Positions 1,938-57,491 of a stretch of 64,000 nt of DNA are shown piece after piece (position 1 is the first letter of the stretch; every line of letters starts with the position of its first letter). The position numbers and the translations under genes were made by a program. Origin of the DNA: Clostridia bacterium (GTDB lineage: Bacteria > Bacillota > Clostridia > UBA1212 > UBA1255); assembly GCA_016287565.1 (NCBI GenBank), contig JAEFAM010000005.1:11229-75228 (forward strand). Reading direction: 5' to 3'. The notes under the pieces were generated by a model that had not been told where the DNA came from, did no database searches, and saw only the letters and a program-made list of their open reading frames with translations.

Positions 1938-3332
1938 CTACGCTTCCGTGCTGCCGATCTCGGACGACAGCTCCAGAATATTGTCCACGAAAACGATCCG
2001 CCCGGGCCGTCCCGAGGAAGTCAGATTCTTTTTGTTGCCCGCGGGCACGTATATCTTCTCGAATCCCAGCCGCACCGCTTCGTTGACCCGCTTCTCTATA
2101 TTGGTGACGGGCCGTATCTCGCCGGTGAGCCCCAGCTCCCCTATATAGACGGCGTCCGACGGCAGCGGTATTCCTCTGAAGGATGACATTATTGCCGCGC
2201 ACACCGCCAGATCGGAGGCAGGTTCGTTAAGCCTGATGCCTCCCACCACGTTGATGAACACGTCGCATTTGCCCAGGGCGTAACCCGCGCGCTTTTCCAG
2301 CACCGCGATCAGCAGGGAGATCCTGTTGTAGTCGAGGCCGGTGCACATTCTTCTGGGCATATTCAGGGAGCTGCCCGTGATCAGGGCCTGTATCTCCAGC
2401 ATCATAGGCCTGCTGCCTTCCATTGCCGCCACCACCGCGGTGCCGCTGACGCCTTTGGGGCGCCCCTCCAGCATTGCATAGGAAGGATTTTCCACTTCGT
2501 GGAGCCCGGTGTCACGCATCTCGAAAACGCCTATTTCGTTGGTGGAGCCGAAACGGTTTTTCACCGCCCTCAGGATGCGGTAGCTCAGGTGCCTCTCCCC
2601 TTCGAAATAGAGCACGGTGTCCACCATATGCTCCAGCACCCTGGGCCCGGCGATGGCTCCGTCTTTAGTAACGTGCCCCACTATGAACACGGTTATGCCC
2701 AGCACTTTGGCGATCCTCATGAATTTACCCGTGATCTCTCGCACCTGGCTCACGCTGCCGGGAGCGGAAGTGAGCTCGGGATCTTCCAGCGTCTGTATGG
2801 AGTCCAGGATGATGTAGGAAGGCTTCACCGCGTCTATCTGAGACACGATGCTGTCCACCGAAGTCTCGTTGTATATAAACAGTTCTCCCCGGTTCACGCC
2901 CAGCCTCTGGGCCCTTAATTTGATCTGGCTCTCGGATTCCTCTCCCGAAACGTACAGCACTCTTCCGGCGGACAACGCCAGATGCCCCGATATCATCAGC
3001 ATCAGCGTGGATTTGCCGATGCCCGGATCTCCGGCCACCAGCACCATTGAACCGCGGACAATTCCGCCGCCCATCACTCTGTCGAGTTCGCTGATCCCGG
3101 ACGAATCCCTGACGCCTTCGCTGTCGCAGCTGATCTCGTCGATCCGTACCGGCTTCGTGTTCTCTCCCAGCCCCATCTGTTTAAGGGGGCCCGAAGACTT
3201 CTTACCGCCGCCCGTTTCCTTAGGCTCTTCCACGAAGGAATTCCATTCGCCGCAGCCCGGGCACCTGCCCAGCCAGCCGCTGGATTCGTATCCGCATTGA
3301 GTGCAATAAAAAACCGTTTTCTTAGAAGCCAT
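1938..3332 (-). CDS. radA: DNA repair protein RadA/Sms
   Basis: N-terminal CxxC..CxxC Zn finger, GDPGIGKST, KNRFG motif, Lon-like C-terminal domain. Confidence 0.97.
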   Translation of the reverse strand: MASKKTVFYCTQCGYESSGWLGRCPGCGEWNSFVEEPKETGGGKKSSGPLKQMGLGENTKPVRIDEISCDSEGVRDSSGISELDRVMGGGIVRGSMVLVAGDPGIGKSTLMLMISGHLALSAGRVLYVSGEESESQIKLRAQRLGVNRGELFIYNETSVDSIVSQIDAVKPSYIILDSIQTLEDPELTSAPGSVSQVREITGKFMRIAKVLGITVFIVGHVTKDGAIAGPRVLEHMVDTVLYFEGERHLSYRILRAVKNRFGSTNEIGVFEMRDTGLHEVENPSYAMLEGRPKGVSGTAVVAAMEGSRPMMLEIQALITGSSLNMPRRMCTGLDYNRISLLIAVLEKRAGYALGKCDVFINVVGGIRLNEPASDLAVCAAIMSSFRGIPLPSDAVYIGELGLTGEIRPVTNIEKRVNEAVRLGFEKIYVPAGNKKNLTSSGRPGRIVFVDNILELSSEIGSTEA

Positions 3333-3334
3333 TT

Positions 3335-6157
3335 TCAGATCTCCCCGGCCGCACTGCCGTTGACCGTCCTCTTAAACACCAGCCCCGTGCCGTCTTCCGA
3401 CAAGGCCACCGTAATGCCGGCCCTGTAATTGACGCCGTTCTCTCCGTCTTTATCCGGATCTGCAGCGGTGTTGACGCCCGATGCTCCTTCGGCGTTTTCG
3501 CAGGGGCTTTCCGGCAATATCAGCCTCAATATCTCTTCGGACAGCGCGTCCTCGATCTCGCGCCTGATGACTCTCTTAAGCGGCCTGGCGCCAAATTTCC
3601 TGTCGTACCCTTTCCTCGCCAGATACCCGGCAACTTCCGGCTCGAAAACGATATCGATGCCGTTCTCTCTGCCGCGGCTGCTGAGTATCTTGAGCTGCAG
3701 TTCGGCGATCTTCACAGTCTCCTCAGGCGTTAGCGGCCTGAATATGACGGTCTCGTCCACGCGGTTCAGGAATTCCGGCTTGAACACGCGCTTGAGCTCC
3801 GCTTTGACCGCCTCGGCCATGGTCTCGTAGCCGCTCTCTTCCGTCTCGATGCCGAAGCCCAGGAAGCGCCTGTCCGTGATGTCCTTGGCGCCCACGTTTG
3901 ACGTCATTATTATGACCGTGTTCTTGAAATCCGCGGTCCTGCCCTTGGCATCGGTCAATATTCCGTCTTCCAGCACCTGGAGCAGTATATTGAACACGTC
4001 CGGATGGGCTTTTTCTATCTCGTCGAACAGCACCACACTGTAGGGCTGGGTCCTCACCCGTTCGGTGAGCTGGCCGCCGTCCTCGAATCCCACGTATCCC
4101 GGAGGGGAACCGATCATTTTGGAAACGCTGTGGGGCTCCATATATTCGGACATGTCCAGCCTGATCATGCTCTTTTCGGTGCCGAAAAGGTTTTCCGCCA
4201 GCGCCCTCGCCAGTTCGGTCTTGCCCACGCCGGTGGGCCCCAGGAACAGGAACGATCCTATAGGCCTGCCGGGATCTTTCATTCCGGCCCGGCCTCTTCT
4301 CACGGCCTTGGACACTAAGGACACCGCTTCGTCCTGCCCCACGAGCCTCACGTGGATGGCCTTTTCGAGTTCCAGCAGTTTTCTGGTATCGTCCTCTCCC
4401 AGTTTCGCCACGGGGACTCCGCTGAGCTGGGAAATGACCTGACGGATGATGCCGGCATCGACGGTGGAAACGTCTTCTCTTTCTTTCTCTATAAAGGCGG
4501 CCTTCAGCGCTTCCAGCCTGTCGGCGAGCACCTTTTCTTCATTGTCCAGTTCCGCGGCCCTGGCGGTGTCTCCCGCCTTTATCGCTTCGATCTTTTCTTT
4601 ATATTTGGCCTTTATCTGAGCTTTCAGACTGCTTCCGCGCCCGTCGGTCAACGGCGCTCCGGCCTTCCCGCCTGCTTCGTCCGGCCCGCCGCTTTCGGTC
4701 TTTCCGGAGCCGCTCCGGTCAATACCTTTTCCCAGCCTGGCCAGGGTGGCGGCTTCGTCGATCACGTCGATGGCTTTCTCGGGCAGATACCTGTCGCTGA
4801 TAAATCTGGCGCTGAGCCTCACGGCCTCCCTCAAAGCCACCGGATCGAAGCGCACTCCGTGGAACGACTCGAACCCCGGCGAGAGCGCGGCGATCATCCT
4901 GAGCGCGTCCTCCTCTCCCGGCTCCTTCACCTGGATCGGCTCCAGCAGCCTTGAAAGTGCGTTGTTCTTCTCGAATATTCTTCGGTAATCCTGGGTGGAA
5001 GTGGCTCCGATGATCCGCACGCCGGTCTGCGAAAGGGCCGATTTCAGCATTGCCGACGGATCGCCTCCCTCGGCGGAACCGTACGACAGCACGTGAATGT
5101 CATCGATGAACAGTACGGTGTTCTTGTCCGCGGCGGCCTCCTCGATTATCATCTGCATCCGCTCTTCGAAGTCTCCCCTGTACCTGGTGCCCGCCAGCAG
5201 CGACACAGTATCGATCCTGATGAGCCTGAGATTCCTGGCTATATCCGGAGCGGCGCCTTCCGCTATCATGGCGGCCAGCCCCTCGGCCACCGCCGTCTTG
5301 CCAACGCCCGTCTCTCCGATCAGGCAGGGGCAGTTCCTGGTTTTCCTGAAAAGGACGCGTATCATCCTCTCGATCACGTCGTTTCTGGCAGCCACGGGGC
5401 TGTATCTTCCTTCCCGGGCCTCTTTTACCATGTCGCGGCCGAAATATGAAAGAGGATCGGCCTGCTGAACGTTCTCTCTGTAGCCGCCCTTGCCGTCGTC
5501 CTGCTGCCTCATGAACAGTTCCCGGAACGCCTGGGAAGTGGCCGCCTGCTCGTCTTCGTCGGGAAGCTCCACGCCGTCCATCTGGAACATCATCTTTTTC
5601 TTCATCAGCTCGTTGGTGTTGAGGAGCTGGGTGACCTCGGTGGCGAAGGCCCTGTCGTCCACGCCCAGGTCTCCGATTATATGGAGCGCGAAGGAGTCGA
5701 TGGTCAGCAGCTGCATCAGCAGATGGAGCGTACCGATCATTGCCCGCCTGTCTCCCTGCGTGCGCTGGACCGCCCCTTCGTAGCTGCCTTTTATGGCTCT
5801 GAAAGCGCCGTAGCTGTAGCCGAGCGCCCCGGACCCGGGATCCGCGTTGACGCCGTATCGTTCTTCAGCCTCGCCGTCTTCTGTGGGGATGAATTCGTCC
5901 TGCCCCCTTTTAGGCCTTTTTCCTGACTTGTATATGATATCGAAGATCTCTTCGCGCTTAATGCCGTAATCGTTCATTATGCCGGAAGCGGTGCCGCTCC
6001 CAAGCCGGGCAAGGCCCCAGAGCAGGTGGCCGGTATTGACCGTTTCCGAACCGAGAAAGACGCACAGGTTTTCAGCCGCGGCAATGGCGGCCAGGGCGTT
6101 TTCCGTAAAATTCTCTCTGTGTTCGTTTATGAACCGGCAGGCAAACGTTCTTTTCAT
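3335..6157 (-). CDS. clpC: ClpC-like ATP-dependent Clp protease ATPase subunit (first AAA module degenerate)
   Basis: Clp N-domain repeats (TGHLLWGL, IGTLHLL), [42 protein letters not shown] ClpP loop; directly upstream of radA. Confidence 0.88.
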   Translation of the reverse strand: MKRTFACRFINEHRENFTENALAAIAAAENLCVFLGSETVNTGHLLWGLARLGSGTASGIMNDYGIKREEIFDIIYKSGKRPKRGQDEFIPTEDGEAEERYGVNADPGSGALGYSYGAFRAIKGSYEGAVQRTQGDRRAMIGTLHLLMQLLTIDSFALHIIGDLGVDDRAFATEVTQLLNTNELMKKKMMFQMDGVELPDEDEQAATSQAFRELFMRQQDDGKGGYRENVQQADPLSYFGRDMVKEAREGRYSPVAARNDVIERMIRVLFRKTRNCPCLIGETGVGKTAVAEGLAAMIAEGAAPDIARNLRLIRIDTVSLLAGTRYRGDFEERMQMIIEEAAADKNTVLFIDDIHVLSYGSAEGGDPSAMLKSALSQTGVRIIGATSTQDYRRIFEKNNALSRLLEPIQVKEPGEEDALRMIAALSPGFESFHGVRFDPVALREAVRLSARFISDRYLPEKAIDVIDEAATLARLGKGIDRSGSGKTESGGPDEAGGKAGAPLTDGRGSSLKAQIKAKYKEKIEAIKAGDTARAAELDNEEKVLADRLEALKAAFIEKEREDVSTVDAGIIRQVISQLSGVPVAKLGEDDTRKLLELEKAIHVRLVGQDEAVSLVSKAVRRGRAGMKDPGRPIGSFLFLGPTGVGKTELARALAENLFGTEKSMIRLDMSEYMEPHSVSKMIGSPPGYVGFEDGGQLTERVRTQPYSVVLFDEIEKAHPDVFNILLQVLEDGILTDAKGRTADFKNTVIIMTSNVGAKDITDRRFLGFGIETEESGYETMAEAVKAELKRVFKPEFLNRVDETVIFRPLTPEETVKIAELQLKILSSRGRENGIDIVFEPEVAGYLARKGYDRKFGARPLKRVIRREIEDALSEEILRLILPESPCENAEGASGVNTAADPDKDGENGVNYRAGITVALSEDGTGLVFKRTVNGSAAGEI

Positions 6158-6172
6158 TCTGGAATTCCTCCG

Positions 6173-6925
6173 TCAATCTTCAAAAAAGCACCTTATCCCC
6201 GACAGCGCGGCCATTCCCGCCGTCTCGGTCCTGAGTATCCTTCTTCCCAGCGAGAAAGCTCTGAAGCCGCAGCCGCGCGCGAATTCCGCCTCCGCGAGGC
6301 TGAATCCTCCTTCGGGCCCGATCACTACCGAAACAGCTCCCCTGAAGTTTTCTCCCAGCTCCGTCAATATCTTTTTCAAAGACGTTTCTTCTTCGTTTTC
6401 GTACGCGAAAAGTTTTACCTCTTCTTCCGGGCGGTTTTCGAGGGCGGCCTTCAGGCTAACGGGTGAAGCCACCCTGGGCACGATGCCTCTGCCGCACTGT
6501 TTCGAAGCTTCTTCGGCGATCTTCTGCCACCTGGCCTGCTTCTTATTTCCTTCGGACTCGTTCAGCCGCACCACCGTATGTTCGGTCATGGCAGGGATTA
6601 TCTCGCAGGCGCCCAGCTCCACCGCTTTCTGGATGATCAGCTCCATTTTATCGCCTTTGGGGACTCCCTGTATGAGCGTCACCCTCACGTCCGGCTCCGT
6701 GGTGTTTTTAGATACGGACAGCACCTCTGCCCTCACGCAGGAGGAGTCGAAGCTCTCTATCCCGGCTTCGAATTCCCTGCCGTCGGTGGCGCAGAGATGC
6801 AAAACGTCCCCTTTTTTCATACGGAGGACGTTAACGATATGGTTGACGTCGCCTCCCCGTATCTCTATAAGTTTGTCCGCCTCGGCCTTCGCGGCCTGAT
6901 CCGCGTCGATAAAAAACTTTCTCAT
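6173..6925 (-). CDS. rsmE: 16S rRNA m3U1498 methyltransferase
   Basis: HIVNVLR, QKAVELG, EASKQCGR, IGPEGGFS, LGRRILRTETA. Confidence 0.96.
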   Translation of the reverse strand: MRKFFIDADQAAKAEADKLIEIRGGDVNHIVNVLRMKKGDVLHLCATDGREFEAGIESFDSSCVRAEVLSVSKNTTEPDVRVTLIQGVPKGDKMELIIQKAVELGACEIIPAMTEHTVVRLNESEGNKKQARWQKIAEEASKQCGRGIVPRVASPVSLKAALENRPEEEVKLFAYENEEETSLKKILTELGENFRGAVSVVIGPEGGFSLAEAEFARGCGFRAFSLGRRILRTETAGMAALSGIRCFFED

Positions 6926-6959
6926 TATCCCTTCTCGCGGCCTTTCCGCTTCCGCCCGG

Positions 6960-47203: not shown

Positions 47204-47755
47204 TTGACCGACGGCGAGATCTTAAAAATGATATCAGCGCGTGATGAAAGCGGTCTGGCGGAGCTGGAGCGCAAGTATTCCGGCTATTGCCGCACCGTTG
47301 CGTTCAACGTTTTGGGAGACCGGGACGAGGCGGAAGAATGCGTCAACGACGCCTTTTTAAGGATCTGGAACGCCACTGGGAGAGAAACGCCCGAAAAGCT
47401 GAAACCCTACCTGGGCAAGACCGTCAGAAACATTGCCCTCAACCGCTACAGGGACAACAACAATTCCAGACACCGTGTGCTTAGCGCCGCCGGGCCTCTG
47501 GAAGACGCGGACCGCCTGGCCGCGCCTGAGGTCAATTACGACCGCGCCATCACGGTGGCCGCGCTGATCAACGAATTTCTGCACTCTCAGCCCGAGAAGA
47601 AACAGAAGCTCTTTGTAGCGAAATACTATTACGAAATGACGGATGAGGAGATCGCCTCCCTGCTGGGTATCCCCCGGGGCAGCGTCAAGTCCGGCATCAG
47701 CCGTATGAAAAAGGAACTTCGGAGCCGTTTCGAAGAGGAGGGCATCAGCGTATGA
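47204..47755 (+). CDS. ECF-type RNA polymerase sigma factor
   Basis: DEAEECVNDAF..IW, YL..TVRNIALNRYR (region 2); EIASLLGIPRGSVKSGISR (region 4); TTG start. Confidence 0.93.
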   Translation: MTDGEILKMISARDESGLAELERKYSGYCRTVAFNVLGDRDEAEECVNDAFLRIWNATGRETPEKLKPYLGKTVRNIALNRYRDNNNSRHRVLSAAGPLEDADRLAAPEVNYDRAITVAALINEFLHSQPEKKQKLFVAKYYYEMTDEEIASLLGIPRGSVKSGISRMKKELRSRFEEEGISV

Positions 47756-49308
47756 ACGACGACAAGCTTAGATATTACTCAAAACTGATATCCGAGGATC
47801 TGGTTTCAAAAGTGGACCCGGAAAACCCGGAAAAAAGTTCTGAAAAAAAAGGTGCCTCAGGCCGGGTTTCAGGCGGAGTGCTTTCGGCCGTGATCACCGT
47901 GGCGCTGTTTGCGGCGGGAATAGTCATTTCCGTTACGCTGGCTGCCCGGTCCGGGAGCAGGAACAGGCGGGGCGGAGATCAGGAAGGACCCGTTGCCGGA
48001 GCCACCGGCGACGTCTCCCCTGCCACAGCCACTCACGACCCGGAGGAAGAGGATATGGCAGAGTTCGAGAACGCAAAAAAGATAACGTTGACGCTGCCCG
48101 CCGGTATCCTTCCGGAAGGCCTGGAAGGAGGAGCGTACGCGGCAGATATGCGCCAGGTCTATACCGATCTTTTCCTGTCATACGGCCTTCCCTCCTTTGA
48201 CGAAGTGGAGATCAGCGAGACAGGCCGTTTCAGGCTCTTCGTCGACACCTCCGTCCAGTCTATTTTTCAACCTGCGTACCGGAACTCCATAGCGTTTATG
48301 CCCGCAAGGATATGCGTCACAGGAAGGATCGAAGCCTCTCCGGGCAGCGAAGGCGAAGAACCGGAAGGCGCCGCTTTCACAGGACTTCACGCGGGACGGT
48401 CATTTTCTCTGGTGGTCGAAAATCTCGTTTACAGATACGAAGACCAGCTGCCGGAGCATCAGATCCTCGACGCCATCAACTACGAATTAAAACATATGGA
48501 AGGCGCGATCGTCGGCTCGAAAGGGCAGTCGATCGAATGGACGACTCCGGGAAGGAACCGCCAGATCAGCGAGGAAACGCTGGAAAAGTACGTCAACGCA
48601 TTGATAAGCAACGGCGGTCGTTACTCCCTTTCCGCATCCACGTTCAAACGGCTGGACGTCCGGATGATATCCGGCAACGCATTTCTGGTGGAACGTTTAA
48701 ATATGGCTGAAGGCGGAGATCTGTCTGTAGACAGAGGAGACCGGGTATTCGTATACGGTGAAGGGGCCAGACCCGCCTCCATTTCCTACGAGACCGCCAT
48801 TTACGGGGCCACCAGAACGTATACCTTCGATGAAAACGGCCTCCTCACGGGAGCGGTATATCTGATGTGGGACGCCCAGTCCGCGTCGTATAACGTAAAT
48901 TATACCATAGAGACGTTCTCCGGCCCCGGCGGCGAAGAGAACGTGAAGGTCACCCGGGAGGGACCGGATGATCGACGGATCGTCATTCTCAACGGCTCCG
49001 GAAAAGAGATCTACAACGAAACGCAGAAGGACAACACTAAATTTTTCAAGTACACCGCGTACGTGCCCTATCAGCTTCCGGGCAACGAGAATATCACCTG
49101 CATGATCTCAAGCCTCACCATACGCTCCGGCCCGAGGCGGGCATATGCTTACGAAGACCGTTATCTTGCCAACGACTACGGGGCGCTCTTAAATACGCTG
49201 TTGACGGAGGCGGAAGTAGATACGACAGGCTGGGACGGCGCGGCCTTCGAAAGGTATTGCCCCGGAATGACGTTCGACCCGGACAAGGGCTGGCGCCTCG
49301 AGGGCTGA
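47752..49308 (+). CDS. Putative membrane-anchored anti-sigma factor with an unknown extracytoplasmic domain
   Basis: ATGA overlap with the ECF sigma; short cytoplasmic N-terminus, single TM (VLSAVITVALFAAGIVISVTLAA), about 450-aa outer domain. Confidence 0.6.
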   Translation: MNDDKLRYYSKLISEDLVSKVDPENPEKSSEKKGASGRVSGGVLSAVITVALFAAGIVISVTLAARSGSRNRRGGDQEGPVAGATGDVSPATATHDPEEEDMAEFENAKKITLTLPAGILPEGLEGGAYAADMRQVYTDLFLSYGLPSFDEVEISETGRFRLFVDTSVQSIFQPAYRNSIAFMPARICVTGRIEASPGSEGEEPEGAAFTGLHAGRSFSLVVENLVYRYEDQLPEHQILDAINYELKHMEGAIVGSKGQSIEWTTPGRNRQISEETLEKYVNALISNGGRYSLSASTFKRLDVRMISGNAFLVERLNMAEGGDLSVDRGDRVFVYGEGARPASISYETAIYGATRTYTFDENGLLTGAVYLMWDAQSASYNVNYTIETFSGPGGEENVKVTREGPDDRRIVILNGSGKEIYNETQKDNTKFFKYTAYVPYQLPGNENITCMISSLTIRSGPRRAYAYEDRYLANDYGALLNTLLTEAEVDTTGWDGAAFERYCPGMTFDPDKGWRLEG

Positions 49309-50038: not shown

Positions 50039-50812
50039 ATGGAATTCAATGATTTGCCCGGAAATTACAGGGAGATGCGGCTTCTTCCATACAAGAAGGA
50101 TCTCGGATATTCCTACGTTTTCGGTCTGTTCCCGGTGATCGAGCTGGCGGATAATCTTCCGTCAGCCCTTTTTCGTATCGTGACCTCTTCCAGGCTGAGC
50201 GAGTCCAACCGGAAGCTGCTGGCCGAAAAAACGGAGTCCCTCGGATTGGCCGTCACTGAGGACGACAGGGCGATAGAGCGCCTCTCTCCTAAAGAGAACT
50301 GTTTCGCCATAGGCGTTTTCAGAAAGTTCGAAGCGGCCGCGGATACGGAGCGGGATCACGTGGTGCTGGTGGATCCGGCGGACAAGGGCAACCTGGGCAA
50401 CATCATAAGGAGCGCCGTAGCTTTCGGCATCAAGGACGTCGTACTTGTGGGCAGGCCCGCGGATCTGTTCGACCCTCACACGGTGCGCGCCTCCATGGGA
50501 GCCATCTTCCGCGTGCGCCCCTCCTTTTACGGTTCCTTCGACGAATACGCCGCTTCGTTCCCCCGCCGTCAATACTACCCCTTTATGCTGAAAGGGAGGC
50601 CCATGGAAGACGCGGTCCCCCGCCGCGATTCGCCGGTATCCCTGATATTCGGCAACGAATCCTCCGGCCTCGACGACAGCTTCCTGTCCGTGGGAGAACC
50701 CCTCCGGATAGGCCAGACGGACGAAGTGGATTCTCTAAATCTTACAGTGGCCGCCGGGATCGCCATGCACTGGCTGGCTTTTTCGGAGCCTTCCCGAGGT
50801 GAACGGAAATGA
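50039..50812 (+). CDS. TrmH/SpoU family RNA 2'-O-methyltransferase
   Basis: GNLGNIIRS, VRASMGA, IFGNESSGL, DSLNLTVAAGI. Confidence 0.92.
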   Translation: MEFNDLPGNYREMRLLPYKKDLGYSYVFGLFPVIELADNLPSALFRIVTSSRLSESNRKLLAEKTESLGLAVTEDDRAIERLSPKENCFAIGVFRKFEAAADTERDHVVLVDPADKGNLGNIIRSAVAFGIKDVVLVGRPADLFDPHTVRASMGAIFRVRPSFYGSFDEYAASFPRRQYYPFMLKGRPMEDAVPRRDSPVSLIFGNESSGLDDSFLSVGEPLRIGQTDEVDSLNLTVAAGIAMHWLAFSEPSRGERK

Positions 50813-51660
50813 AAGAATTACCGGAAGCGCTGCAAAAAAAATCGAGGCTGGCCGGCGTCAACGACCAGAAAGTGAAAGACGCCCGTGATATGCTGCTGGG
50901 CCGGTACAAAGGCGACGACGGGCTTTTTATTTGCGAAGGCCTCTGGGCCGCGGAAAAGCTGCTCTCGAAGGGGCTGGAGATCGAAACGGTATATTACGAT
51001 TCCGTTTATTTTTCTCCCGAGGGAAAATGCACGGAGGAAGAGCTGAGGCAGTTGACGGCGGTGGCCGGCGCGGCGGCGGAAGTATTGTCCGTTTCTCCGA
51101 AAGCATGCGCCAGGATCAGCGACAGGGACGGAGCGGACGTTTGCTTCATCGTGGCAAGATTGCCCGAATACGACCCTGAAGCGCTGGAGCTCCGGGACGA
51201 TATGCTCGTAATGATACTCGACGGGCAGGAGCAGCCGGGCAATATCGGGGCGATCCTGAGGTCTCTTGACGCGGCGGGAGGCGATTTCGCCATCGTCACA
51301 CACAGGCGCGTGAAACTCACCCACCCCCGCCTGATCCGTTCCAGCCTGGGCAGCGCGTTTATGATGCCCTTCTTCGAGATGCCCTTCGAAAAACTTACGG
51401 CGTGGCTGCAGGACAAAGGCTTCCGCACCGTGCTCACCGACCTCACCGCCACTAAAAATTTCTGCGATATCTCCCCCAAAGGCCGCATCGCCGTGGTGGC
51501 GGGCAACGAGCATACCGGCATCTCTCCGGAATGGCGGGAAATAAAAGGATCCGAGCCGGTGATAATACCGATGCTCGGATCTGTGGAATCTCTCAACGTA
51601 GGCTTCGCCTCCACGCTGGTGGCGTACAATATCGGGCTCAGGCAGAAGGGCCTGATGTGA
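50809..51660 (+). CDS. TrmH/SpoU family RNA 2'-O-methyltransferase (TsnR-like N-terminus)
   Basis: FICEG, PGNIGAILRS, IRSSLG, GNEHTGI, IPMLGSVESLNV. Confidence 0.92.
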   Translation: MKELPEALQKKSRLAGVNDQKVKDARDMLLGRYKGDDGLFICEGLWAAEKLLSKGLEIETVYYDSVYFSPEGKCTEEELRQLTAVAGAAAEVLSVSPKACARISDRDGADVCFIVARLPEYDPEALELRDDMLVMILDGQEQPGNIGAILRSLDAAGGDFAIVTHRRVKLTHPRLIRSSLGSAFMMPFFEMPFEKLTAWLQDKGFRTVLTDLTATKNFCDISPKGRIAVVAGNEHTGISPEWREIKGSEPVIIPMLGSVESLNVGFASTLVAYNIGLRQKGLM

Positions 51661-51717
51661 CCGGAAGCCGCTTGATACGGAAGACAGTGCACGTCCGCGC
51701 CGAACCGGAGTCCCTTA

Positions 51718-53058
51718 TCACCAGTAATCCTTCAGATGGCCGCTCCGTCTCCCCTGGCGGAGCTTTCTTTTTGCCTTGGCCTCTATCTGACGGATGCGTT
51801 CCCGGGTCACGTTGAAATAGCGTCCCACCTCTTCCAGCGTATGCTCCACGCCGTCCTCGAAGCCGAAGCGCATCATTATGACCTTGCGTTCTTTTTCGCT
51901 CAAAGTGTCAAGAACTTTTACGATCTCTTCTCCCAGGATGGAATTGGCGGCGATATCGAAGGGCGAAGGCGCCTCGTCGGCGATCGTATCGCCTCTCACT
52001 CTGTCCTCGTCGTCGCCCAGAGGATCGTCGAAGGAGACCACGTCCTGGCTCGCGGCCATCATCCTGACAACTTTATCTTCGGGAATGTTCAACTCTTCCG
52101 CCAGTTCTTTATAGGAGGGTTCCCTGCCCAGCTTCTGGGTAAGTGATCTGGAGACGCGGTTCAGCCTGTTCATTGACTCCACCATATGCACCGGGATCCT
52201 TATGATCCTGGTCTGGTCCGCTATCGCCCGGCCGATGGCCTGGCGTATCCACCAGGTGGCGTAGGTGCTGAACCTGTAGCCTTTGCGGTAGTCGTATTTC
52301 TCCACGGCGCGCATCAGGCCGATATTGCCCTCCTGAATCAGATCGAGGAGCCCCAGGCCCTTGCCCATATAATGTTTGGCCACGCTGACCACCAGGCGCA
52401 GGTTGCTCTCGGCCAGCACGTTCTTGGCCGCTTCGTCTCCGTTCTCGATCCGGATCGCCAGTTCCTGCTCCTCCTCTGCGGTGAGCAGAGGGATATTGCC
52501 GATCTCCCGCAGGTAAAGGCGCACGTGGTCTTCCAGGCCGAAGCCTTCTATCAGGTGCTCGAAATCGCCGTTTTCGTCGCTTTTAGGTATGGGATCCTCT
52601 TTTTCGGGGGCAACGGCTACGCGGATGCCGTTTCCGGCGATCACGTCGTACAGCCGGTCGGCAACGTCTCCGCTCAGCTGCACGTCCTCGGTCACCGCTG
52701 CGATCTCGTCCACCGTCACGTACCCGCGCATCCTGCCGCTGTGAAGCAGGCGCAGCACTTCCTCGCTGCCCTCGAAGAGCCCTGCGTCAACAAAATCCGC
52801 CGCCTCTCCCGCGCTGGCGAACACCGCCGCGGGAAGCTCTTCGGGGCTCTTTTCATCTTCGGACAAGGAATTTTCAGAGAATACGAGCGCGTCGACCCCG
52901 TTAAAATAAGAGAATTTATCGGGATCGAACCTATCGCCGTTGACCTCGCCGGATCGCTCTTCCTCCCTCAGGAGTTCATCGTCCGGCTCGATCCAGCCCA
53001 GGTCCTCTTCATTGTCCGCGCAAGCTCCGCCGGGACGGATATTTTCGCCGTCAGACAT
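51718..53058 (-). CDS. Second RpoD/SigA-like sigma-70 factor (tandem paralogue)
   Basis: [63 protein letters not shown]. Confidence 0.93.
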
Positions 53059-53145
53059 ACGTCAGTTTCCTTCTTATATACTTTCTTAAAACGTGACCGG
53101 CCGCAGGGCGGAATGGAAAAAGGGAGGCGTCCGCGGCGGACTTTC

Positions 53146-55605
53146 TTACTCGTAGAAATCCTTGAGCTTCTTGCTTCTGTTGGGATTCTTAAGCTTTCTG
53201 ATGGCTTTCGCCTCTATCTGCCTGATGCGCTCCCTGGTGACGTTGAATTCCTTGCCCACTTCTTCCAGAGTACGCTGCCTGCCATCTTCCAGGCCGAAGC
53301 GGAGTTTCAGCACCCGCTGTTCCCTGTCGGTAAGCGTCTCCAGCACTTCCATAAGCTGTTCGTGAAGCAGCGTCTGGGCGGCGCTGTCGGAGGGTGAAGG
53401 AGAGCTTTCGTCCTTGATGAAGTCGCCGATGTGGCTGTCTTCTTCTTCGCCTACGGGAGACTCCAGGGAGACGGTGTCCTGGGAATATTTCATTATCTCC
53501 CGGACTTTATATACGGGCATGCCCAGTTCTTCCGCGATCTGCTCGGAAGTGGGATCCTTGCCCAGCCTCTGCGCCAGCTCCCGGGAAGTCCTTTTCAGCT
53601 TGTTGATGTTTTCGTTCATGTGCACCGGGATGCGGATGGTGTTTGACTGGTCCGCGATGGCCCTGGTGATGGACTGCCTGATCCACCAGGTGGCGTAGGT
53701 ACTGAACTTGCAGCCTTTTCTGTAGTCGAATTTGTCCACCACTTTGAGAAGGCCCAGGTTGCCCTCCTGGATCAGATCCAGGAACTGCATTCCCTTGCCC
53801 ACGTAGTGTTTGGCGATGCTGACCACCAGGCGAAGGTTGGCTTCGTACAGCCTGTTTTTGGCGTTCTCGTCCCCTTCTTCCACCTTCTTGGCCAGTTCGA
53901 TCTCTTCCTCGGCGGTGAGCAGCGGCACTTTTCCGATCTCTTTCAGGTACATCCTGACGTGGTCTTCGAGCCCAACGCCCTCGGTGAATTCGTCGTAGCC
54001 GTGCTCGTACAGCTTTTCGGAGGCGCCGTTTTCGTCAACGATCCTGATCCCCAGCCTGAGGCACAGATCGTACAGCTTTTCCACCGATTCCGCGTCAAGG
54101 TCGATCTCGCCGGTGACCTGGTTGAAGTCTTCTACGGTGATGGAGCCCGTCACCCGGCCCTGCTTCAGCATCTGCATGACCTGAACGTTGTCCTCGAAGA
54201 TGCCCAGCTCCATTTTTTCCAGGTTTTCCTCTTCGTATTCGCCGTCGATCTCGTCTTCGTAATCGCCTTTTTTCGCTCTGGTGCTGCCGGCGTCATACTC
54301 GTGGTCCAGCTCGGCGATCTTGTTGAGGTCAATGGAATCCAGATCCATTTCTTCTTTTTCCAGTTCCTTGTCCTCTTCGAGATTGGCGTAGTCCGGCTCG
54401 ATCTCGTCTTCGTTTTCCTCGTCTTCGTCCTCGTCTTCTTCCGGGTCGATGCCAATGAAGTCGTCTGCCAGGTCGTCATCGATACCCGTAAAGTCGTCTT
54501 CTTCGGGCGCGGCGGCAGGCTCCGGAGCGGGAGCCGCGGTTTCCGCGGTGGCTTCAGGAGCTTTTTCCTCAGGCTGCTCCTCTTTGGGAGCGGCATTTTC
54601 GGCCGGAACGATCTCCGGGGAAGCGGTTTCGGATGCATTCTCTTCTGCCTCTTTTGCCGCTTCGGCCGCAGGTAGTTCAGGTGCTTTTTCCTGCTTTTTA
54701 GCCTTTTTAGCGGAAGTTTTAGGCGCCGCTTTTTTGGCGGGCAAAGCTTCCGGGATTATTATTTCTACTTTTTCGGCAGCCGGCTTTTCTTCGGTTTTTT
54801 CAGACTTGGGCTTCGCTTCTGCCGCTTTTTCTTCGGGCTTCTCCTCAGGCTTTTCCTCGGGTTTTGCCTCGGTTTTCGCTTCGGCGGCCTTTTTCTCCTT
54901 TTTCTCGGCCTTTTTAGGCTCTGCCTTGGGCTCTGCGGCTTTCTTTTCAGCCTTTTTAGCCTCGGTTTTGGGCGCGGCTGATTTAGCCTCGGCCTTTTTA
55001 GGCTCCGGCTTCACTTCGGCGGCTTTTTCTTCGGGTTTCTCCTCGGGTTTTTCTTCGGCTTTCGCTTCTGCAGTCTTTTTCTCCGTCTTTTTAGGCTCTG
55101 CTTTGGGAGCTGCAGCTTTCTTCTCGGCCTTCCCGGGTTCGGGCTTTACTTCGACGGTCTTCGCTTCGACGGCTTTCTTTTCAGCCTTTTTGGGCTCAGG
55201 CTTTGCTTCGGTGGCTTTAACTTCGGCTTTTTTCGCCTCGGCCTTCTTCTCCGTCTTCTTAGGTTCGGCTTTAGGCGCGGCGGCTTTCGCTTCGGCCTTT
55301 TTAGGCTCGGCTTTAACCTCGGTCTTCTTTGCCTCGGCCTTCTTCGGCTCGGGCTTCGCCTCGACGGCCTTTTTCTCCGCCTTTTTAGCCTCCGCTTTAG
55401 GCGCAGCGGCTTTCGTCCCGGCAGCCTTGACGGCAGTTTTGGAAGCAGACGGTTTCTCCCCGGTTTTCGCAGGAGCGGTCTCTGCGGCAGCTTTGGCCGT
55501 CGCCTTCTTCGTCCTGGTTCTGGCCTCGGCAGTCTCCGCCGGAGCTTTCACCGTCTTTTTCGTTTCCTTTTCCGCGTCTTCAGCTTTCTTCTTAGTTGCT
55601 GCCAT
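53146..55605 (-). CDS. rpoD: Primary sigma factor RpoD/SigA with a very long low-complexity N-terminal extension
   Basis: Follows dnaG; regions 1.1, 1.2, 2, 3 and 4 present; [49 protein letters not shown]. Confidence 0.95.
54500..55590 (-). repeat. Degenerate coding repeats (A/K/E/P-rich) in the rpoD N-terminus
   Basis: Many EPKKAE(K/A)K units; [12 protein letters not shown] x2; [14 protein letters not shown] x2. Confidence 0.85.
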
Positions 55606-55673: not shown

Positions 55674-57491
55674 TTAAGCCCTGTTTCTCAGCACGAGTTC
55701 GTTGAGCTGCTTCATAAGCCTGCTCTTCTCCACCGGGTCCGAAGCCCTGCGGAACTTGTCCGATAAAACAGAATAGTCATATTTGAAACGGTACTTTTCA
55801 AGATTCTTTTGTAACTCCGCCAGAGTGGTCTGGCTTCCAACCTGGTCAAATTCGTCCGTAAGCTCGGAGGCCAGCCCGGTGGGACAATCCTCCAGGAGCG
55901 TATCCCGCCCGATGGCGTACCCGTTAATATACCACGAATGCACTTTATTAGCAAGATTTTTGTTGTCCTCGAACCTGAGATCTTCTCTCAGCCGGTCAAT
56001 TACCGAGGGGATCTCGGAGGGGTTGTCCGCCAGATAGATCAGCATCCTTTTTTCTGTCTTGTCCAGCTGCTTTCCTTCCGGAGAAAGCGGCCTCGGCCCC
56101 TCTTCCGGTTCCGCGGCGTTGCCCTCCTGCGAATACCTGACGCGCTTGTAAGCCGTCTTGGCCCTCTCGTCGGTGACTTCGCCGCCGCCGGCGACTTTTG
56201 CGTCCACGTCCTGCCTAAGCGACAGTTCGTCGATGCCGTAGCGCTCAGATACTTTGGTGATATACGTGCTCCTGACGGAAGCGGAAGGCTCTTCGGATAT
56301 GATCCTGACGGTCTGCCTTAAAAAGTCCGGAAGCGTGGCGCCGGAATCCGGAGGATACCTGCCTGCGGCCAGTTCGATCTTGAAATCCACCAGCGTCTCC
56401 GCCTTTTCAACGCATTTGATGAACTCTTCGGGAGAGTGCTTGCGCAGGAACTCGTCCGGGTCCTTGACCTCTTTGTCGACCACGCCCAGCTTCAGGATAC
56501 GCACCCTGAGGCCCTGGGATGAAAGTATCTCCATCCCCCTGACCGTGGCGGTCTGGCCTGCGGCGTCGCTGTCGTATCCTATAATGACTTCTTCAAAATA
56601 TCTTTTCATCAGCCTCGCCTGGCCCAGGGTGAGAGACGTTCCCAGGGAGGCCACGGCCCAGTTTATGCCTTTCTGGTGGAGCGCGATGGCGTCCATATAC
56701 CCCTCTACCACGATCACCTGCTTAGAGCCGGATCTCCTGGCGAAATTCAGGGCGTACAGATGGCTGCCTTTATTGTACGCAGGCGTCTCGGGGGAATTCA
56801 TATATTTGGGCTTGGAATCGTCCATCACCCTGCCTCCGAAGGCGATCACCCTGCCGGTCTCGTCGAATATGGGGAACATGACTCTGTTCCTGAAGCGGTC
56901 GTAATAAGTGCCCTTTTCGCTGCGCATCGACAGGCCCGCGGACACCATCAGTTCGCCTGAAACTCCCAGAGGCCCGTAGGTGCAGGTCTTGGTCAACTGA
57001 TCCCAGCTGTCCGGGGCGAATCCCAGCCCGAACTGGTCGATTATGTTCTGGGAAAGGCCTCTGCGGGCAATATACTCCCTGCCTTCCGCGGACCTGGCCA
57101 GTCCGTCAACGAAGAATTTCTGCGCCCTGTTGTTCAGCGAAAGTATGTCGTTCCGGAGCTTGGACCTATCGTCATCCTGCCTGTCTCCGCCTTCGTATCT
57201 CAGCTCCACTCCCGCCCGTTTGGCCAGGAACTCTATGCTTCTCACGTAGTCGAGATTTTCGGCCAGCATAATGAACTGGACGACGCCGCCGCCTTTGCCG
57301 CAGCCGAAGCATTTGAATATGCGCCTGCTCTCGTTGACGTTGAAAGAAGGCGTTTTTTCGTTGTGGAACGGACAGAGCCCGGTATAGTTTGCCCCGGAGC
57401 GCTTTAACTTTACGTATTCGCTCACGACTGACACTATATCGTTCTTCTCGATCACTTCTTCGATCTGCGCCTGTGGGATCCTTCCGGCCAT
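55674..57491 (-). CDS. dnaG: DNA primase
   Basis: CPFH..CFGC Zn finger, DRFRNRVMFPI, KYMNSPET, VEGYMD, YDSDAAG (TOPRIM), KDPDE. Confidence 0.98.
   Translation of the reverse strand: MAGRIPQAQIEEVIEKNDIVSVVSEYVKLKRSGANYTGLCPFHNEKTPSFNVNESRRIFKCFGCGKGGGVVQFIMLAENLDYVRSIEFLAKRAGVELRYEGGDRQDDDRSKLRNDILSLNNRAQKFFVDGLARSAEGREYIARRGLSQNIIDQFGLGFAPDSWDQLTKTCTYGPLGVSGELMVSAGLSMRSEKGTYYDRFRNRVMFPIFDETGRVIAFGGRVMDDSKPKYMNSPETPAYNKGSHLYALNFARRSGSKQVIVVEGYMDAIALHQKGINWAVASLGTSLTLGQARLMKRYFEEVIIGYDSDAAGQTATVRGMEILSSQGLRVRILKLGVVDKEVKDPDEFLRKHSPEEFIKCVEKAETLVDFKIELAAGRYPPDSGATLPDFLRQTVRIISEEPSASVRSTYITKVSERYGIDELSLRQDVDAKVAGGGEVTDERAKTAYKRVRYSQEGNAAEPEEGPRPLSPEGKQLDKTEKRMLIYLADNPSEIPSVIDRLREDLRFEDNKNLANKVHSWYINGYAIGRDTLLEDCPTGLASELTDEFDQVGSQTTLAELQKNLEKYRFKYDYSVLSDKFRRASDPVEKSRLMKQLNELVLRNRA

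What the first reader, a model, noticed from the sequence alone, without database searches (positions are those of the whole stretch)
51718..55605. Tandem pair of primary-type (RpoD/SigA) sigma factors behind dnaG, with shared idiosyncrasies but a different -10 recognition helix
Seen: two full group-1-like sigma genes, 87 bp apart on the same strand, directly after dnaG. Both carry the same non-canonical features: GLEDHVR(M/L)YL(K/R)EIG where SigA normally has DPVRMYL, and KHY(V/M)GKG where SigA has KRYVGRG. Both also have a similar region-1.1-like segment (G(I/L)FE..V..L..GR..G..TV..LYD..GIR). Each copy then departs from consensus in different places. Copy 1 reads [24 protein letters not shown]; copy 2 reads [24 protein letters not shown]. 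Copy 2 also has an altered sigma-finger ([16 protein letters not shown] versus [16 protein letters not shown]). The region 4.2 helix ([10 protein letters not shown]) is identical. Knowledge: the Thr in RQAIT (E. coli sigma70 T440) contributes to -12 base recognition, and region 3.2 affects initiation. Inference: a lineage-specific duplication of the housekeeping sigma produced a second sigma with the same -35 but an altered -10 or initiation behaviour. This could be an undescribed two-sigma housekeeping switch.
Basis: partly seen in the sequence, partly recalled or inferred. Interest (0 to 1): 0.78.

Follow-up and report, generated by a model that had tools for sequence, protein, structure and literature searches.

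The report
Tandem duplicated primary sigma factor genes
An uncultured genus of rumen Clostridia carries two full-length copies of its main transcription-initiation factor side by side, both kept by selection, a rare but recurring way for bacteria to gain a second housekeeping-like sigma factor.

Summary
On the minus strand dnaG (55674-57491) is followed by two full sigma-70 genes, copy 1 (53146-55605, 819 aa) and copy 2 (51718-53058, 446 aa). They lie 87 bp apart and are 54% identical over 363 aa.

The pair is a genus-specific tandem duplication of sigA. All 8 of 8 genomes of the window's genus have it, and none of the other 33 relatives searched do. The two copies are sister clades (96/91).

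The T440G change in copy 2 is private to this species lineage; 7 of 8 genus genomes keep the canonical helix. The genus-wide fixed changes in that helix (Y425C, A438S, A447S, R448N, V457N, T459N) are in copy 1.

Both copies are under strong purifying selection (dN/dS 0.015-0.055) and have high codon adaptation. The genome's dominant promoter motif is canonical TTGACA-17-TGnTATAAT.

Independent dnaG-sigA-sigA pairs exist in two other Clostridia genera. No usable expression data could be obtained.

Verdict: a real, functional primary-like paralogue, a new variant of a known kind.

The parts
55674..57491 (-). dnaG (DNA primase, 605 aa), first gene of the dnaG-sigA-sigA2 row
   Evidence: Pfam finds Zn_ribbon_DnaG, DNAG_N, Toprim and DnaB_bind. 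The gene is syntenic where the contig reaches it: in all 4 of the 7 other genus loci that extend that far, and in most relatives.
53146..55605 (-). Copy 1 (sigA, 819 aa): positional orthologue of the single SigA of related genera; probable principal sigma
   Evidence: Pfam finds r1.2, r2, r3 and r4. RpoD_Cterm scores 383 bits against a cut-off of 354. Orthologues are 92-99% identical over the last 345 codons, with dN/dS 0.015. CAI is at the 98th percentile.
54205..55605 (-). N-terminal extension of copy 1 (residues 1-467): a Lys/Ala/Glu/Pro-rich stretch (1-300, net +28) followed by an acidic stretch (301-467, net -51)
   Evidence: Composition. Imperfect tandem repeats with periods of 12-69 bases. 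Extensions of the same type and of 221-474 aa occur in the copy 1 ORFs of all 8 genus genomes; 3 of these ORFs are cut at a contig end.
53602..53688 (-). Copy 1 region 2.4-3.0 helix (E. coli 433-461) carrying the genus-fixed A438S, A447S, R448N, V457N and T459N; Y425C lies just upstream
   Evidence: Alignment and fixed-difference count. Numbering was checked against the residue list in Table 2 of PMC11217687. The Asn-448 form was found in 3 of 401 class genomes, all of this genus.
53059..53145 (-). 87-bp spacer between the copies; it has a ribosome-binding site (GAAGGAAA) but no terminator or consensus promoter
   Evidence: Sequence. The scan found no minus-strand promoter-like or terminator-like site here. 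The fold is no more stable than shuffles (z +1.6). Orthologous spacing ranges from a 4-nt overlap to 92 bp.
51718..53058 (-). Copy 2 (446 aa): full-length primary-like paralogue with an acidic N-terminus (1-92, net -21), region 1.1, and regions 1.2-4
   Evidence: Pfam finds r1.1, r1.2, r2, r3 and r4. RpoD_Cterm scores 334.5 bits, below the 354 cut-off. dN/dS in two unsaturated orthologue pairs is 0.021 and 0.055. CAI is at the 82nd-87th percentile.
52168..52254 (-). Copy 2 region 2.4-3.0 helix; in this species it carries T440G (codon 52231-52233), A447T, T449I and T459S
   Evidence: The same states occur in P0001 (95% identical). P0003 has T440S and T449I. The other 7 genus genomes keep T440 and the canonical helix, apart from a few single substitutions elsewhere.
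51982..52035 (-). Copy 2 sigma finger (region 3.2), [18 protein letters not shown], with Arg at two positions of the normally acidic DSH(I/L)GDF tip
   Evidence: Alignment. The altered form occurs in 5 of 8 copy 2 orthologues. A near-canonical form ([17 protein letters not shown]) occurs in the other 3 of 8.

Best explanation
In the ancestor of one uncultured rumen Clostridia genus, sigA was duplicated in tandem inside the dnaG-sigA operon. Both copies have been kept through the whole radiation of the genus.

Copy 1 lies next to dnaG and has a long Lys/Ala-rich plus acidic N-terminal tail. It is extremely conserved and has the highest codon adaptation, so it is most likely the principal sigma.

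Copy 2 is a full-length primary-like sigma. It resembles group 1 in architecture because it keeps region 1.1, and resembles group 2 in its likely role. It is probably co-transcribed with copy 1 and competes for the same core RNA polymerase.

Both copies keep the identical -35 helix and the main -10 determinants (W433, W434, Q437, R441, R451, H455, E458). I therefore infer that both read the canonical TTGACA-17-(TG)nTATAAT promoters that dominate the genome. The labour would be divided by finer properties rather than by a different consensus:
- contacts with the duplex just upstream of and within the -10 element (positions 425, 448, 457 and 459 in copy 1; 401 and 462 in copy 2; also 440, 449 and 459 in this species);
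- the sigma finger (copy 2 in 5 of 8 species);
- the flanks of region 4.2;
- the very different N-terminal tails.

Shown: the duplication, its age, the selection on both copies, the residue changes and the promoter consensus. Inferred: co-transcription, which copy is principal, and the kinetic or regulatory division of labour.
For: Distribution and synteny:
- The tandem pair is present in 8 of 8 genus genomes and in 0 of 33 other relatives.
- The genus order is dnaG-sig1-sig2-<spoU-<spoU. The neighbouring genus has dnaG-sigA-<spoU-<spoU.

Phylogeny (careful tree, 29 rows, 353 columns):
- The two copy clades are sisters at 96/91, with congruent internal topologies.
- Three shared derived residues are absent from 15 outgroup SigA.

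Selection (NG86, pairs with unsaturated dS):
- G001-G002: copy 1 0.015, copy 2 0.021, dnaG 0.044, spoU 0.069.
- G003-G004: copy 1 0.015, copy 2 0.055, spoU 0.106.
- In the window's own lineage, P0001 differs from copy 2 at 24 residues. Only 4 of them fall in the 276-aa core, and Gly-440 is retained.

Expression proxy and operon structure:
- CAI against the ribosomal-protein cluster plus EF-Tu puts the copy 1 core at the 98th percentile, the copy 2 core at the 87th and dnaG at the 61st, out of 1333 long ORFs.
- There is no terminator or promoter in the spacer.

Promoters in this genome (1067 upstream regions):
- The top hexamers are TATAAT (189 observed, 42 expected) and TTGAC-type.
- The spacer is mostly 17-18 nt (20 of 36 TTGAC hits).
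- TGn precedes TATAAT in 40 of 135 cases, against a TG background of 4.9%.

Other sigma factors: the genome has only these two large sigma factors plus 11 small ones in open frames of 189-226 aa.
Against: - There is no usable expression or binding evidence of any kind, so which copy is principal rests on proxies (conservation, position, CAI).
- Copy 1, not copy 2, carries 27 fixed derived states. These include four at positions that Table 2 of PMC11217687 lists as DNA-interacting (Y425, R448, I457, T459). Copy 2 keeps the ancestral residues there in 7 of 8 species. That fits a model in which copy 2 holds the ancestral role.
- dS is saturated in most orthologue pairs, so dN/dS rests on two close pairs.
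- Both copy stems are long (0.44 and 0.81), so long-branch attraction could inflate their sisterhood. A first tree with a distant outgroup left it unresolved.
- The promoter analysis used crude ORF calls and no mapped transcription start sites. It cannot see a minor second promoter class.
Confidence: 0.6

Rival explanations
1. The roles are reversed. Copy 2 kept the ancestral housekeeping promoter recognition. Copy 1, freed by the duplication, became a specialised sigma. It would have altered -10-proximal contacts and a histone-like basic tail that tethers it to DNA or to particular promoters.
For: Copy 1 has 27 fixed derived states against 13 in copy 2. They include Y425C, R448N, V457N and T459N. 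The Asn-448 form was found in 3 of 401 class genomes, all of this genus. The canonical Arg form was found in 53 of 61. Copy 2 keeps the canonical helix in 7 of 8 species. The genome's dominant promoter is canonical. The copy 1 tail has a net charge of +28 over 300 aa.
Against: Copy 1 sits in the ancestral position and is far more conserved (dN 0.008-0.068 against 0.010-0.343). It passes the RpoD_Cterm cut-off where copy 2 does not, and it has the higher codon adaptation. N-terminal extensions also occur on the single SigA of related genera, which are 407-966 aa long. The residues shown in print to recognise -12 and -14 (Q437, R441, E458) are intact in copy 1 (PMC4593229 passages).
Confidence: 0.22
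2. Copy 2 is a redundant spare that is drifting towards loss.
For: It evolves about five times faster than copy 1 in amino-acid sequence. In this genome it has the longest tip branch (0.57), and it falls below the RpoD_Cterm cut-off.
Against: The reading frame is intact in 8 of 8 species. Its dN/dS of 0.021-0.055 is lower than that of dnaG and spoU in the same pairs. Its core is 98.6% identical to P0001. Its CAI is at the 82nd-87th percentile.
Confidence: 0.04
3. Copy 2 was acquired horizontally, for example from a phage or another Clostridia lineage, and landed next to sigA by chance.
For: The window's copy 2 core is slightly more identical to the SigA of other genera (up to 65%) than to copy 1 (61-62%).
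Against: The trees place it inside the family's SigA clade and sister to copy 1. It shares derived residues with copy 1. Base composition is uniform across the region. The nearest non-orthologous homologues are ordinary SigA at 57% identity or less.
Confidence: 0.03

Closest known systems
Group 2 (primary-like, non-essential) sigma factors: RpoS, Streptomyces HrdA/C/D, mycobacterial SigB, cyanobacterial SigB-E. Family properties are recalled. PMC7527412 and PMC1087845 were seen only as search listings.
   Same: It arose by duplication of the primary sigma gene. Regions 2-4 are very similar, so the promoter consensus overlaps. It coexists with a more conserved principal sigma.
   Different: Copy 2 keeps region 1.1 (Pfam 34.3 bits) and an acidic N-terminal tail. 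It lies in tandem in the dnaG-sigA operon. It is confined to one genus of Clostridia. It does not reach the RpoS or SigB model cut-offs. Here the principal copy also changed at conserved DNA-contact positions.
SigA of Firmicutes in the dnaG-sigA operon. The best solved relatives are the SigA chains of PDB entries 7l7b, 8x6f and 7ckq; I recall their organisms as Clostridioides difficile, Staphylococcus aureus and Bacillus subtilis.
   Same: The gene order is dnaG then sigA. The region architecture is complete. Matches to these SigA chains have E-values of 1e-127 to 1e-132.
   Different: There are two copies instead of one. Copy 1 has a 467-aa N-terminal extension and six fixed substitutions between positions 425 and 459. 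Neither copy reaches the full-length RpoD equivalog cut-off (526 and 429 bits against 572).
Independent dnaG-sigA-sigA pairs found here in two other Clostridia genera (G122 and G151; G139)
   Same: The same tandem architecture sits directly after dnaG (G151 was seen only as tandem hits). Each pair is its own clade. In G139 the distal copy is the fast-evolving one and also carries T449I and T459N.
   Different: The copies in those pairs are 358-369 aa long, with no long tails. In G122 they are 80% identical and both canonical. In both pairs the proximal copy keeps the canonical helix. In the window's genus, both copies diverged.
About 300-aa RpoD/RpoS-like sigma without region 1.1, unlinked to dnaG, in many related genera of the same order
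   Same: It is a primary-like second sigma in the same order (about 240 bits to RpoD_Cterm).
   Different: It is only 36-41% identical to copy 2. It forms a separate deep clade. It was not found in the window's genus (0 of 8) or the neighbouring genus (0 of 3) at E <= 1e-40.

Membership tests
Group 1 / RpoD-SigA primary sigma | Regions 1.2, 2, 3 and 4 all present | tested here: met
   Pfam r1_2, r2, r3 and r4 are all above their cut-offs in both copies.
Group 1 / RpoD-SigA primary sigma | Region 1.1 present | tested here: met
   Copy 2 scores 34.3 bits on Pfam Sigma70_r1_1 against a cut-off of 22.5. Copy 1 has no Pfam hit. However, its residues 468-541 align with region 1.1 of copy 2 and with the N-terminus of solved SigA chains. 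The feature is therefore met for copy 2 and probable for copy 1.
Group 1 / RpoD-SigA primary sigma | NCBIfam RpoD_Cterm (TIGR02393) score at or above the 354-bit cut-off | tested here: inconclusive
   In the protein scan, copy 1 scores 383.2 (met) and copy 2 scores 334.5 (not met). In the genome scan, copy 2 orthologues pass in 3 of 8 genus genomes (369-370 bits) and fall below in 5 of 8 (337-348 bits).
Group 1 / RpoD-SigA primary sigma | Full-length RpoD equivalog NF006666, cut-off 572 bits | tested here: not met
   Copy 1 scores 525.9 and copy 2 scores 428.9. Both are RpoD-like, but neither is a curated equivalog.
Group 1 / RpoD-SigA primary sigma | Essential; the cell's main sigma | not testable with these tools
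   The organism is uncultured and I found no usable RNA data. The only proxies are the CAI percentiles of 98 and 87.
Group 2 primary-like sigma | High similarity to the primary sigma in regions 2-4, with the same -35 helix | tested here: met
   The cores are 61-62% identical and [10 protein letters not shown] is identical.
Group 2 primary-like sigma | Lacks region 1.1 (recalled definition) | tested here: not met
   Copy 2 has region 1.1.
Group 2 primary-like sigma | Dispensable; used in stress or stationary phase | not testable with these tools
   There are no genetics or expression data.
RpoS (TIGR02394) | Score at or above the 378.7-bit cut-off | tested here: not met
   Copy 2 scores 308.1 and copy 1 scores 318.2.
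MzaA (anti-phage system sigma, NF041931) | Score at or above the 800-bit cut-off | tested here: not met
   The scores are 346.8 and 339.5, and only the shared C-terminal sigma core matches.

The most novel reading that the evidence does not exclude
An obligate two-primary-sigma system produced by reciprocal divergence. After the duplication, the ancestral SigA function was split. Copy 1 is frozen at 92-99% identity over its last 345 codons. It lost an aromatic residue that I recall as lining the A(-11) pocket (Y425C) and a near-invariant Arg (R448N), and it carries a histone-like basic tail. Copy 2 kept the ancestral DNA contacts but rebuilt its finger, its region 4 flanks and an acidic tail. 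On this reading neither copy alone can run the housekeeping programme. The three independent dnaG-sigA-sigA duplications in Clostridia would be snapshots of a general route by which Firmicutes create primary-like sigma factors.
Probability: 0.2. Interest if true: 0.75.

Novelty: new variant of a known kind. Interest (0 to 1): 0.5.

Why it matters
Primary sigma factors are among the most constrained bacterial proteins and are normally single-copy. Here one genus has kept two full-length copies for its whole history. The more conserved copy is the one that changed residues that touch promoter DNA, yet the genome's promoter consensus stayed canonical.

That makes a natural experiment on three questions:
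- How much of the -10-proximal interface can change without changing the consensus.
- How duplicated sigma factors partition promoters.
- How primary-like (group 2-type) sigma factors originate.

The same architecture arose independently in three Clostridia genera at different stages of divergence (80%, 57% and 54% identity). Together these offer a time series. The practical reach is limited because the organisms are uncultured rumen bacteria.

Tried and rejected
- **Expression.** No RNA holder was listed for 51600-54300. Laying four runs gave only fragmentary contigs. Two of the runs are labelled 'RNA?', with a library described as genomic. This gives no verdict on transcription or relative level.
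- **Separate promoter or terminator for copy 2.** The consensus scan found none on the minus strand in the spacer. The spacer RNA folds no better than shuffles.
- **Shifted promoter consensus in this genome.** Rejected. The top upstream hexamers are TATAAT and TTGAC-type, with TG enriched at -15/-14. I did not run the same analysis on a single-copy relative, so subtle shifts remain untested.
- **First phylogeny with the distant ~300-aa sigma as outgroup.** The quick tree gave sisterhood at 88. The careful tree left it unresolved, with one very long row. I replaced it with a closer-outgroup tree on a longer alignment. No AU test was run.
- **dN/dS in the window's own lineage.** The metagenome scan returned only 3 loci at 61-66% identity, so this was not possible. 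I used two substitutes. One was the amino-acid comparison with P0001. The other was the 10 contig variants in copy 2, of which 6 are synonymous and 4 are not.
- **Horizontal origin and MzaA or RpoS membership.** Rejected.
- **Literature.** Three searches found no description of tandem sigA or rpoD genes in Clostridia or Firmicutes. 'sigA2' mostly returned immunoglobulin papers. PMC8716302 had no passage on these residues.
- **Earlier notes of this scan.** There is nothing at this place. One loosely related note concerns a truncated sigma paralogue between dnaG and rpoD in another phylum.
- It was rejected for a term format and was re-sent.
Full report
**1. What is there**

The minus strand of the window carries three genes in a row:
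- dnaG, 55674-57491, 605 aa.
- An 819-aa sigma factor, copy 1, 53146-55605.
- After an 87-bp spacer, a 446-aa sigma factor, copy 2, 51718-53058.

Two convergent SpoU-type methylase genes follow on the plus strand, at 50039-50812 and 50809-51660.

Pfam finds regions 1.2, 2, 3 and 4 in both sigma factors and region 1.1 in copy 2. The copies are 54% identical over 363 residues, and that stretch includes the region-1.1-like segment. NCBIfam's RpoD C-terminal model scores 383 bits for copy 1 and 334.5 for copy 2 against a cut-off of 354. Neither copy reaches the full-length RpoD equivalog cut-off.

**2. Where it occurs**

The window's genome is a 2.65-Mb assembly in 143 contigs, 96% complete. It has only these two RpoD-like genes, plus 11 small sigma-70-family genes in open frames of 189-226 aa.

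Among 41 genomes (the window's genome plus 40 relatives), the tandem pair is present in 8 of 8 genomes of the window's genus and in none of the other 33.

Synteny in the genus is (373-aa gene)-dnaG-copy 1-copy 2-<spoU-<spoU. The neighbouring genus has dnaG-sigA-<spoU-<spoU with no second sigma. So copy 2 is an insertion at the 3' side of sigA.

Public records for five of the genus genomes are rumen or omasum metagenome-assembled genomes from yak, sheep, buffalo and a rumen collection. They are labelled 'Clostridia bacterium' or 'uncultured Ruminococcus sp.'.

A protein search found about 20 clusters at 59-95% identity that are copy 2 orthologues. Below that come ordinary SigA at 57% or less.

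**3. Origin**

A first tree rooted on a distant ~300-aa sigma gave sisterhood of the two copy clades at 88 in the quick tree. It was unresolved in the careful tree.

A careful tree on 29 rows and 353 columns, including region 1.1 and closer outgroups, gave these results:
- Copy 1 clade 100/99.
- Copy 2 clade 100/100.
- Union of the two 96/91.
- The two clades have congruent internal topologies.
- The neighbouring genus's SigA is the next branch (81/51).

Three derived residues are shared by all copy 1 and at least 7 of 8 copy 2 sequences, and are absent from 15 outgroup SigA: R393H in 'KHY', P504T and A530S. The last two are numbered by offset only.

The duplication therefore predates the radiation of the genus. 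Horizontal origin is rejected. One caveat is that both stems are long (0.44 and 0.81). Adding another very long sigma (the G139 distal copy, tip 1.71) did not pull copy 2 away from copy 1.

**4. What changed, and in which copy**

Residue numbering was transferred to E. coli sigma-70 by alignment. It was then checked against the residue identities printed in Table 2 of PMC11217687 for positions 393-466 and 580-591.

[10 protein letters not shown] is the norm in this order: EDHVRMYL occurs in 13 of 20 outgroup SigA. Only the His of 'KHY' is pair-specific.

Copy 1 carries 27 states that are fixed in 8 of 8 species and absent from 15 outgroup SigA. Among them are Y425C, A438S, A447S, R448N, V457N (Ile in E. 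coli) and T459N. Copy 2 carries 13 such fixed states. In the DNA-contact part of region 2-3 these are only F401L and K462R.

Y425, R448, I457, T459, F401, K462 and T440 are all listed as DNA-interacting in that table.

In 7 of 8 species, copy 2 keeps T440 and the canonical [24 protein letters not shown], apart from a few single substitutions elsewhere in the helix. The same states occur in the 95%-identical P0001. P0003, which is 66% identical, has T440S and T449I.

The altered finger (D-R-T/V-R-G-D in place of D-S-H-I-G-D-F) is found in 5 of 8 copy 2 orthologues.

Both copies retain the following:
- W433, W434, Q437, R441, R451, V454, H455 and E458.
- The whole [10 protein letters not shown] helix.

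For six of these residues, PMC4593229 (passages read) describes contacts with -12 to -17.

The Asn-448 form of the motif was found in 3 of 401 class genomes, and all three belong to this genus. None of the 398 others, across 215 genera, has it. The Arg form was found in 53 of 61 genomes in a smaller sample. It was not found in the window's genome, because copy 2 here has T449I.

**5. Selection and expression proxies**

dS is saturated in most pairs. The two close pairs give these dN/dS values:

| Pair | Copy 1 | Copy 2 | dnaG | spoU |
|---|---|---|---|---|
| G001-G002 | 0.015 | 0.021 | 0.044 | 0.069 |
| G003-G004 | 0.015 | 0.055 | not available | 0.106 |

Across the genus, dN is 0.008-0.068 for copy 1 and 0.010-0.343 for copy 2. 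The copy 2 range is similar to dnaG and spoU.

In the window's own lineage, P0001 differs from copy 2 at 24 residues. Twenty of these fall in the first 160 residues and only 4 in the 276-aa core.

Codon adaptation was measured against 28 minus-strand ORFs of the ribosomal-protein cluster plus EF-Tu. Percentiles are among 1333 long ORFs:
- Copy 1 core: 98th.
- Copy 1 tail: 89th.
- Copy 2 core: 87th.
- dnaG: 61st.
- The SpoU genes: 39th to 50th.

I found no usable RNA evidence (see Tried and rejected).

**6. Operon and promoters**

The spacer has a ribosome-binding site. It has no minus-strand terminator-like or promoter-like site and no stable fold. In orthologues the spacing runs from a 4-nt overlap to 92 bp. 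Co-transcription is therefore inferred, not shown.

I analysed 1067 upstream regions of this genome, taken from crude ORF calls:
- The most over-represented hexamers are TATAAT (189 observed, 42 expected), GTTGAC, ATTGAC and TTGACA.
- The preferred spacer is 17-18 nt.
- TGn precedes TATAAT in 40 of 135 cases, against a TG background of 4.9%.

The dominant promoter class is thus the canonical Firmicute one. The copy 1 substitutions have not shifted the consensus visibly.

**7. Context in the class**

Many related genera have an unlinked ~300-aa RpoD/RpoS-like sigma without region 1.1 (about 240 bits). It was not found in the window's genus (0 of 8) or in the neighbouring genus (0 of 3).

In a sample of 121 genomes of the class (87 genera, E <= 1e-95), tandem full-length pairs occur in three genera. 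These are the window's genus, one genus with two genomes (G122 and G151), and one genus with one genome (G139).

In G122 and G139 the pair follows dnaG. In G122 the copies are 80% identical and both are canonical. In G139 they are 57% identical, and the distal copy reads [24 protein letters not shown].

Each pair is its own clade (100, 96 and 93 in a quick tree). These are therefore three independent duplications.

**8. Reading**

The duplication, its age and the selection on both copies are shown. I commit at 0.6 to the following:
- Copy 1 is the principal sigma.
- Copy 2 is a co-transcribed primary-like sigma that reads the same consensus.
- The two differ in -10-proximal duplex contacts, finger-dependent initiation, region 4 flanks and N-terminal tails.

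The main rival, at 0.22, reverses the roles. Its basis is that the conserved copy is the one that changed DNA-contact residues.

I found no description of such a pair in Clostridia in three literature searches. The kind of event, a primary-like sigma arising by rpoD duplication, is well known from other phyla (recalled). I therefore rate it a new variant of a known kind, with moderate interest.

Noticed in passing
window 54205-55605 (-): Copy 1 has a 467-aa N-terminal extension. Residues 1-300 are 28% Lys, 26% Ala, 19% Glu and 10% Pro (net +28) and are built of imperfect repeats. Residues 301-467 are acidic (net -51). The type is conserved in all 8 genus genomes. From memory, it resembles the Lys/Ala-rich tails of actinobacterial principal sigma factors and of histone H1-like proteins.
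   Followed up: partly
L043 (G122) 2988-6955 and L044 (G139) 2317-6392; G151:C19 392-2258: Independent dnaG-sigA-sigA tandem pairs occur in two other Clostridia genera. The copies are 80% and 57% identical. In G139 the distal copy carries T449I and T459N, as copy 2 of the window's lineage partly does.
   Followed up: partly
L028-L034 (e.g. L030 2690-3598, L031 2676-3560): Many related genera carry an unlinked ~300-aa RpoD/RpoS-like sigma without region 1.1, below every NCBIfam cut-off. It was not found in the window's genus or in the neighbouring genus. The tandem copy may have replaced an older primary-like sigma.
   Followed up: partly
window 47204-49308 (+): A 183-aa ECF-type sigma gene (Sigma70_r2 hit) overlaps by 4 nt the start of a 518-aa gene. 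By eye, that protein has a hydrophobic segment after about 40 residues. This looks like a sigma/anti-sigma pair.
   Followed up: no
window 50039-51660 (+): Two adjacent SpoU-family RNA methylase genes overlap by 4 nt. They are convergent with copy 2 and syntenic across the genus and the neighbouring genus.
   Followed up: no
protein P0002: A 696-aa database protein contains the SigA core from region 1.2 to region 4 twice, in one frame and letter for letter. This is probably an assembly artefact of a repeat or a circularised read.
   Followed up: no
G000 upstream regions, genome-wide: Besides the promoter and ribosome-binding-site words, TTTAGC/ATTTAG/TTAGCT and GTCCCC/CTGTCC/CCCCGT are over-represented upstream of genes (z 7-9). 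These are unexplained motifs or repeats.
   Followed up: no
window 55926-55954 (-): A promoter-like site (TTGCTA-17-TATATT with TG) lies inside the 3' part of dnaG, about 320 bp upstream of copy 1. It could be an internal promoter for the sigma genes. The number of such sites in the region is not above shuffles.
   Followed up: no
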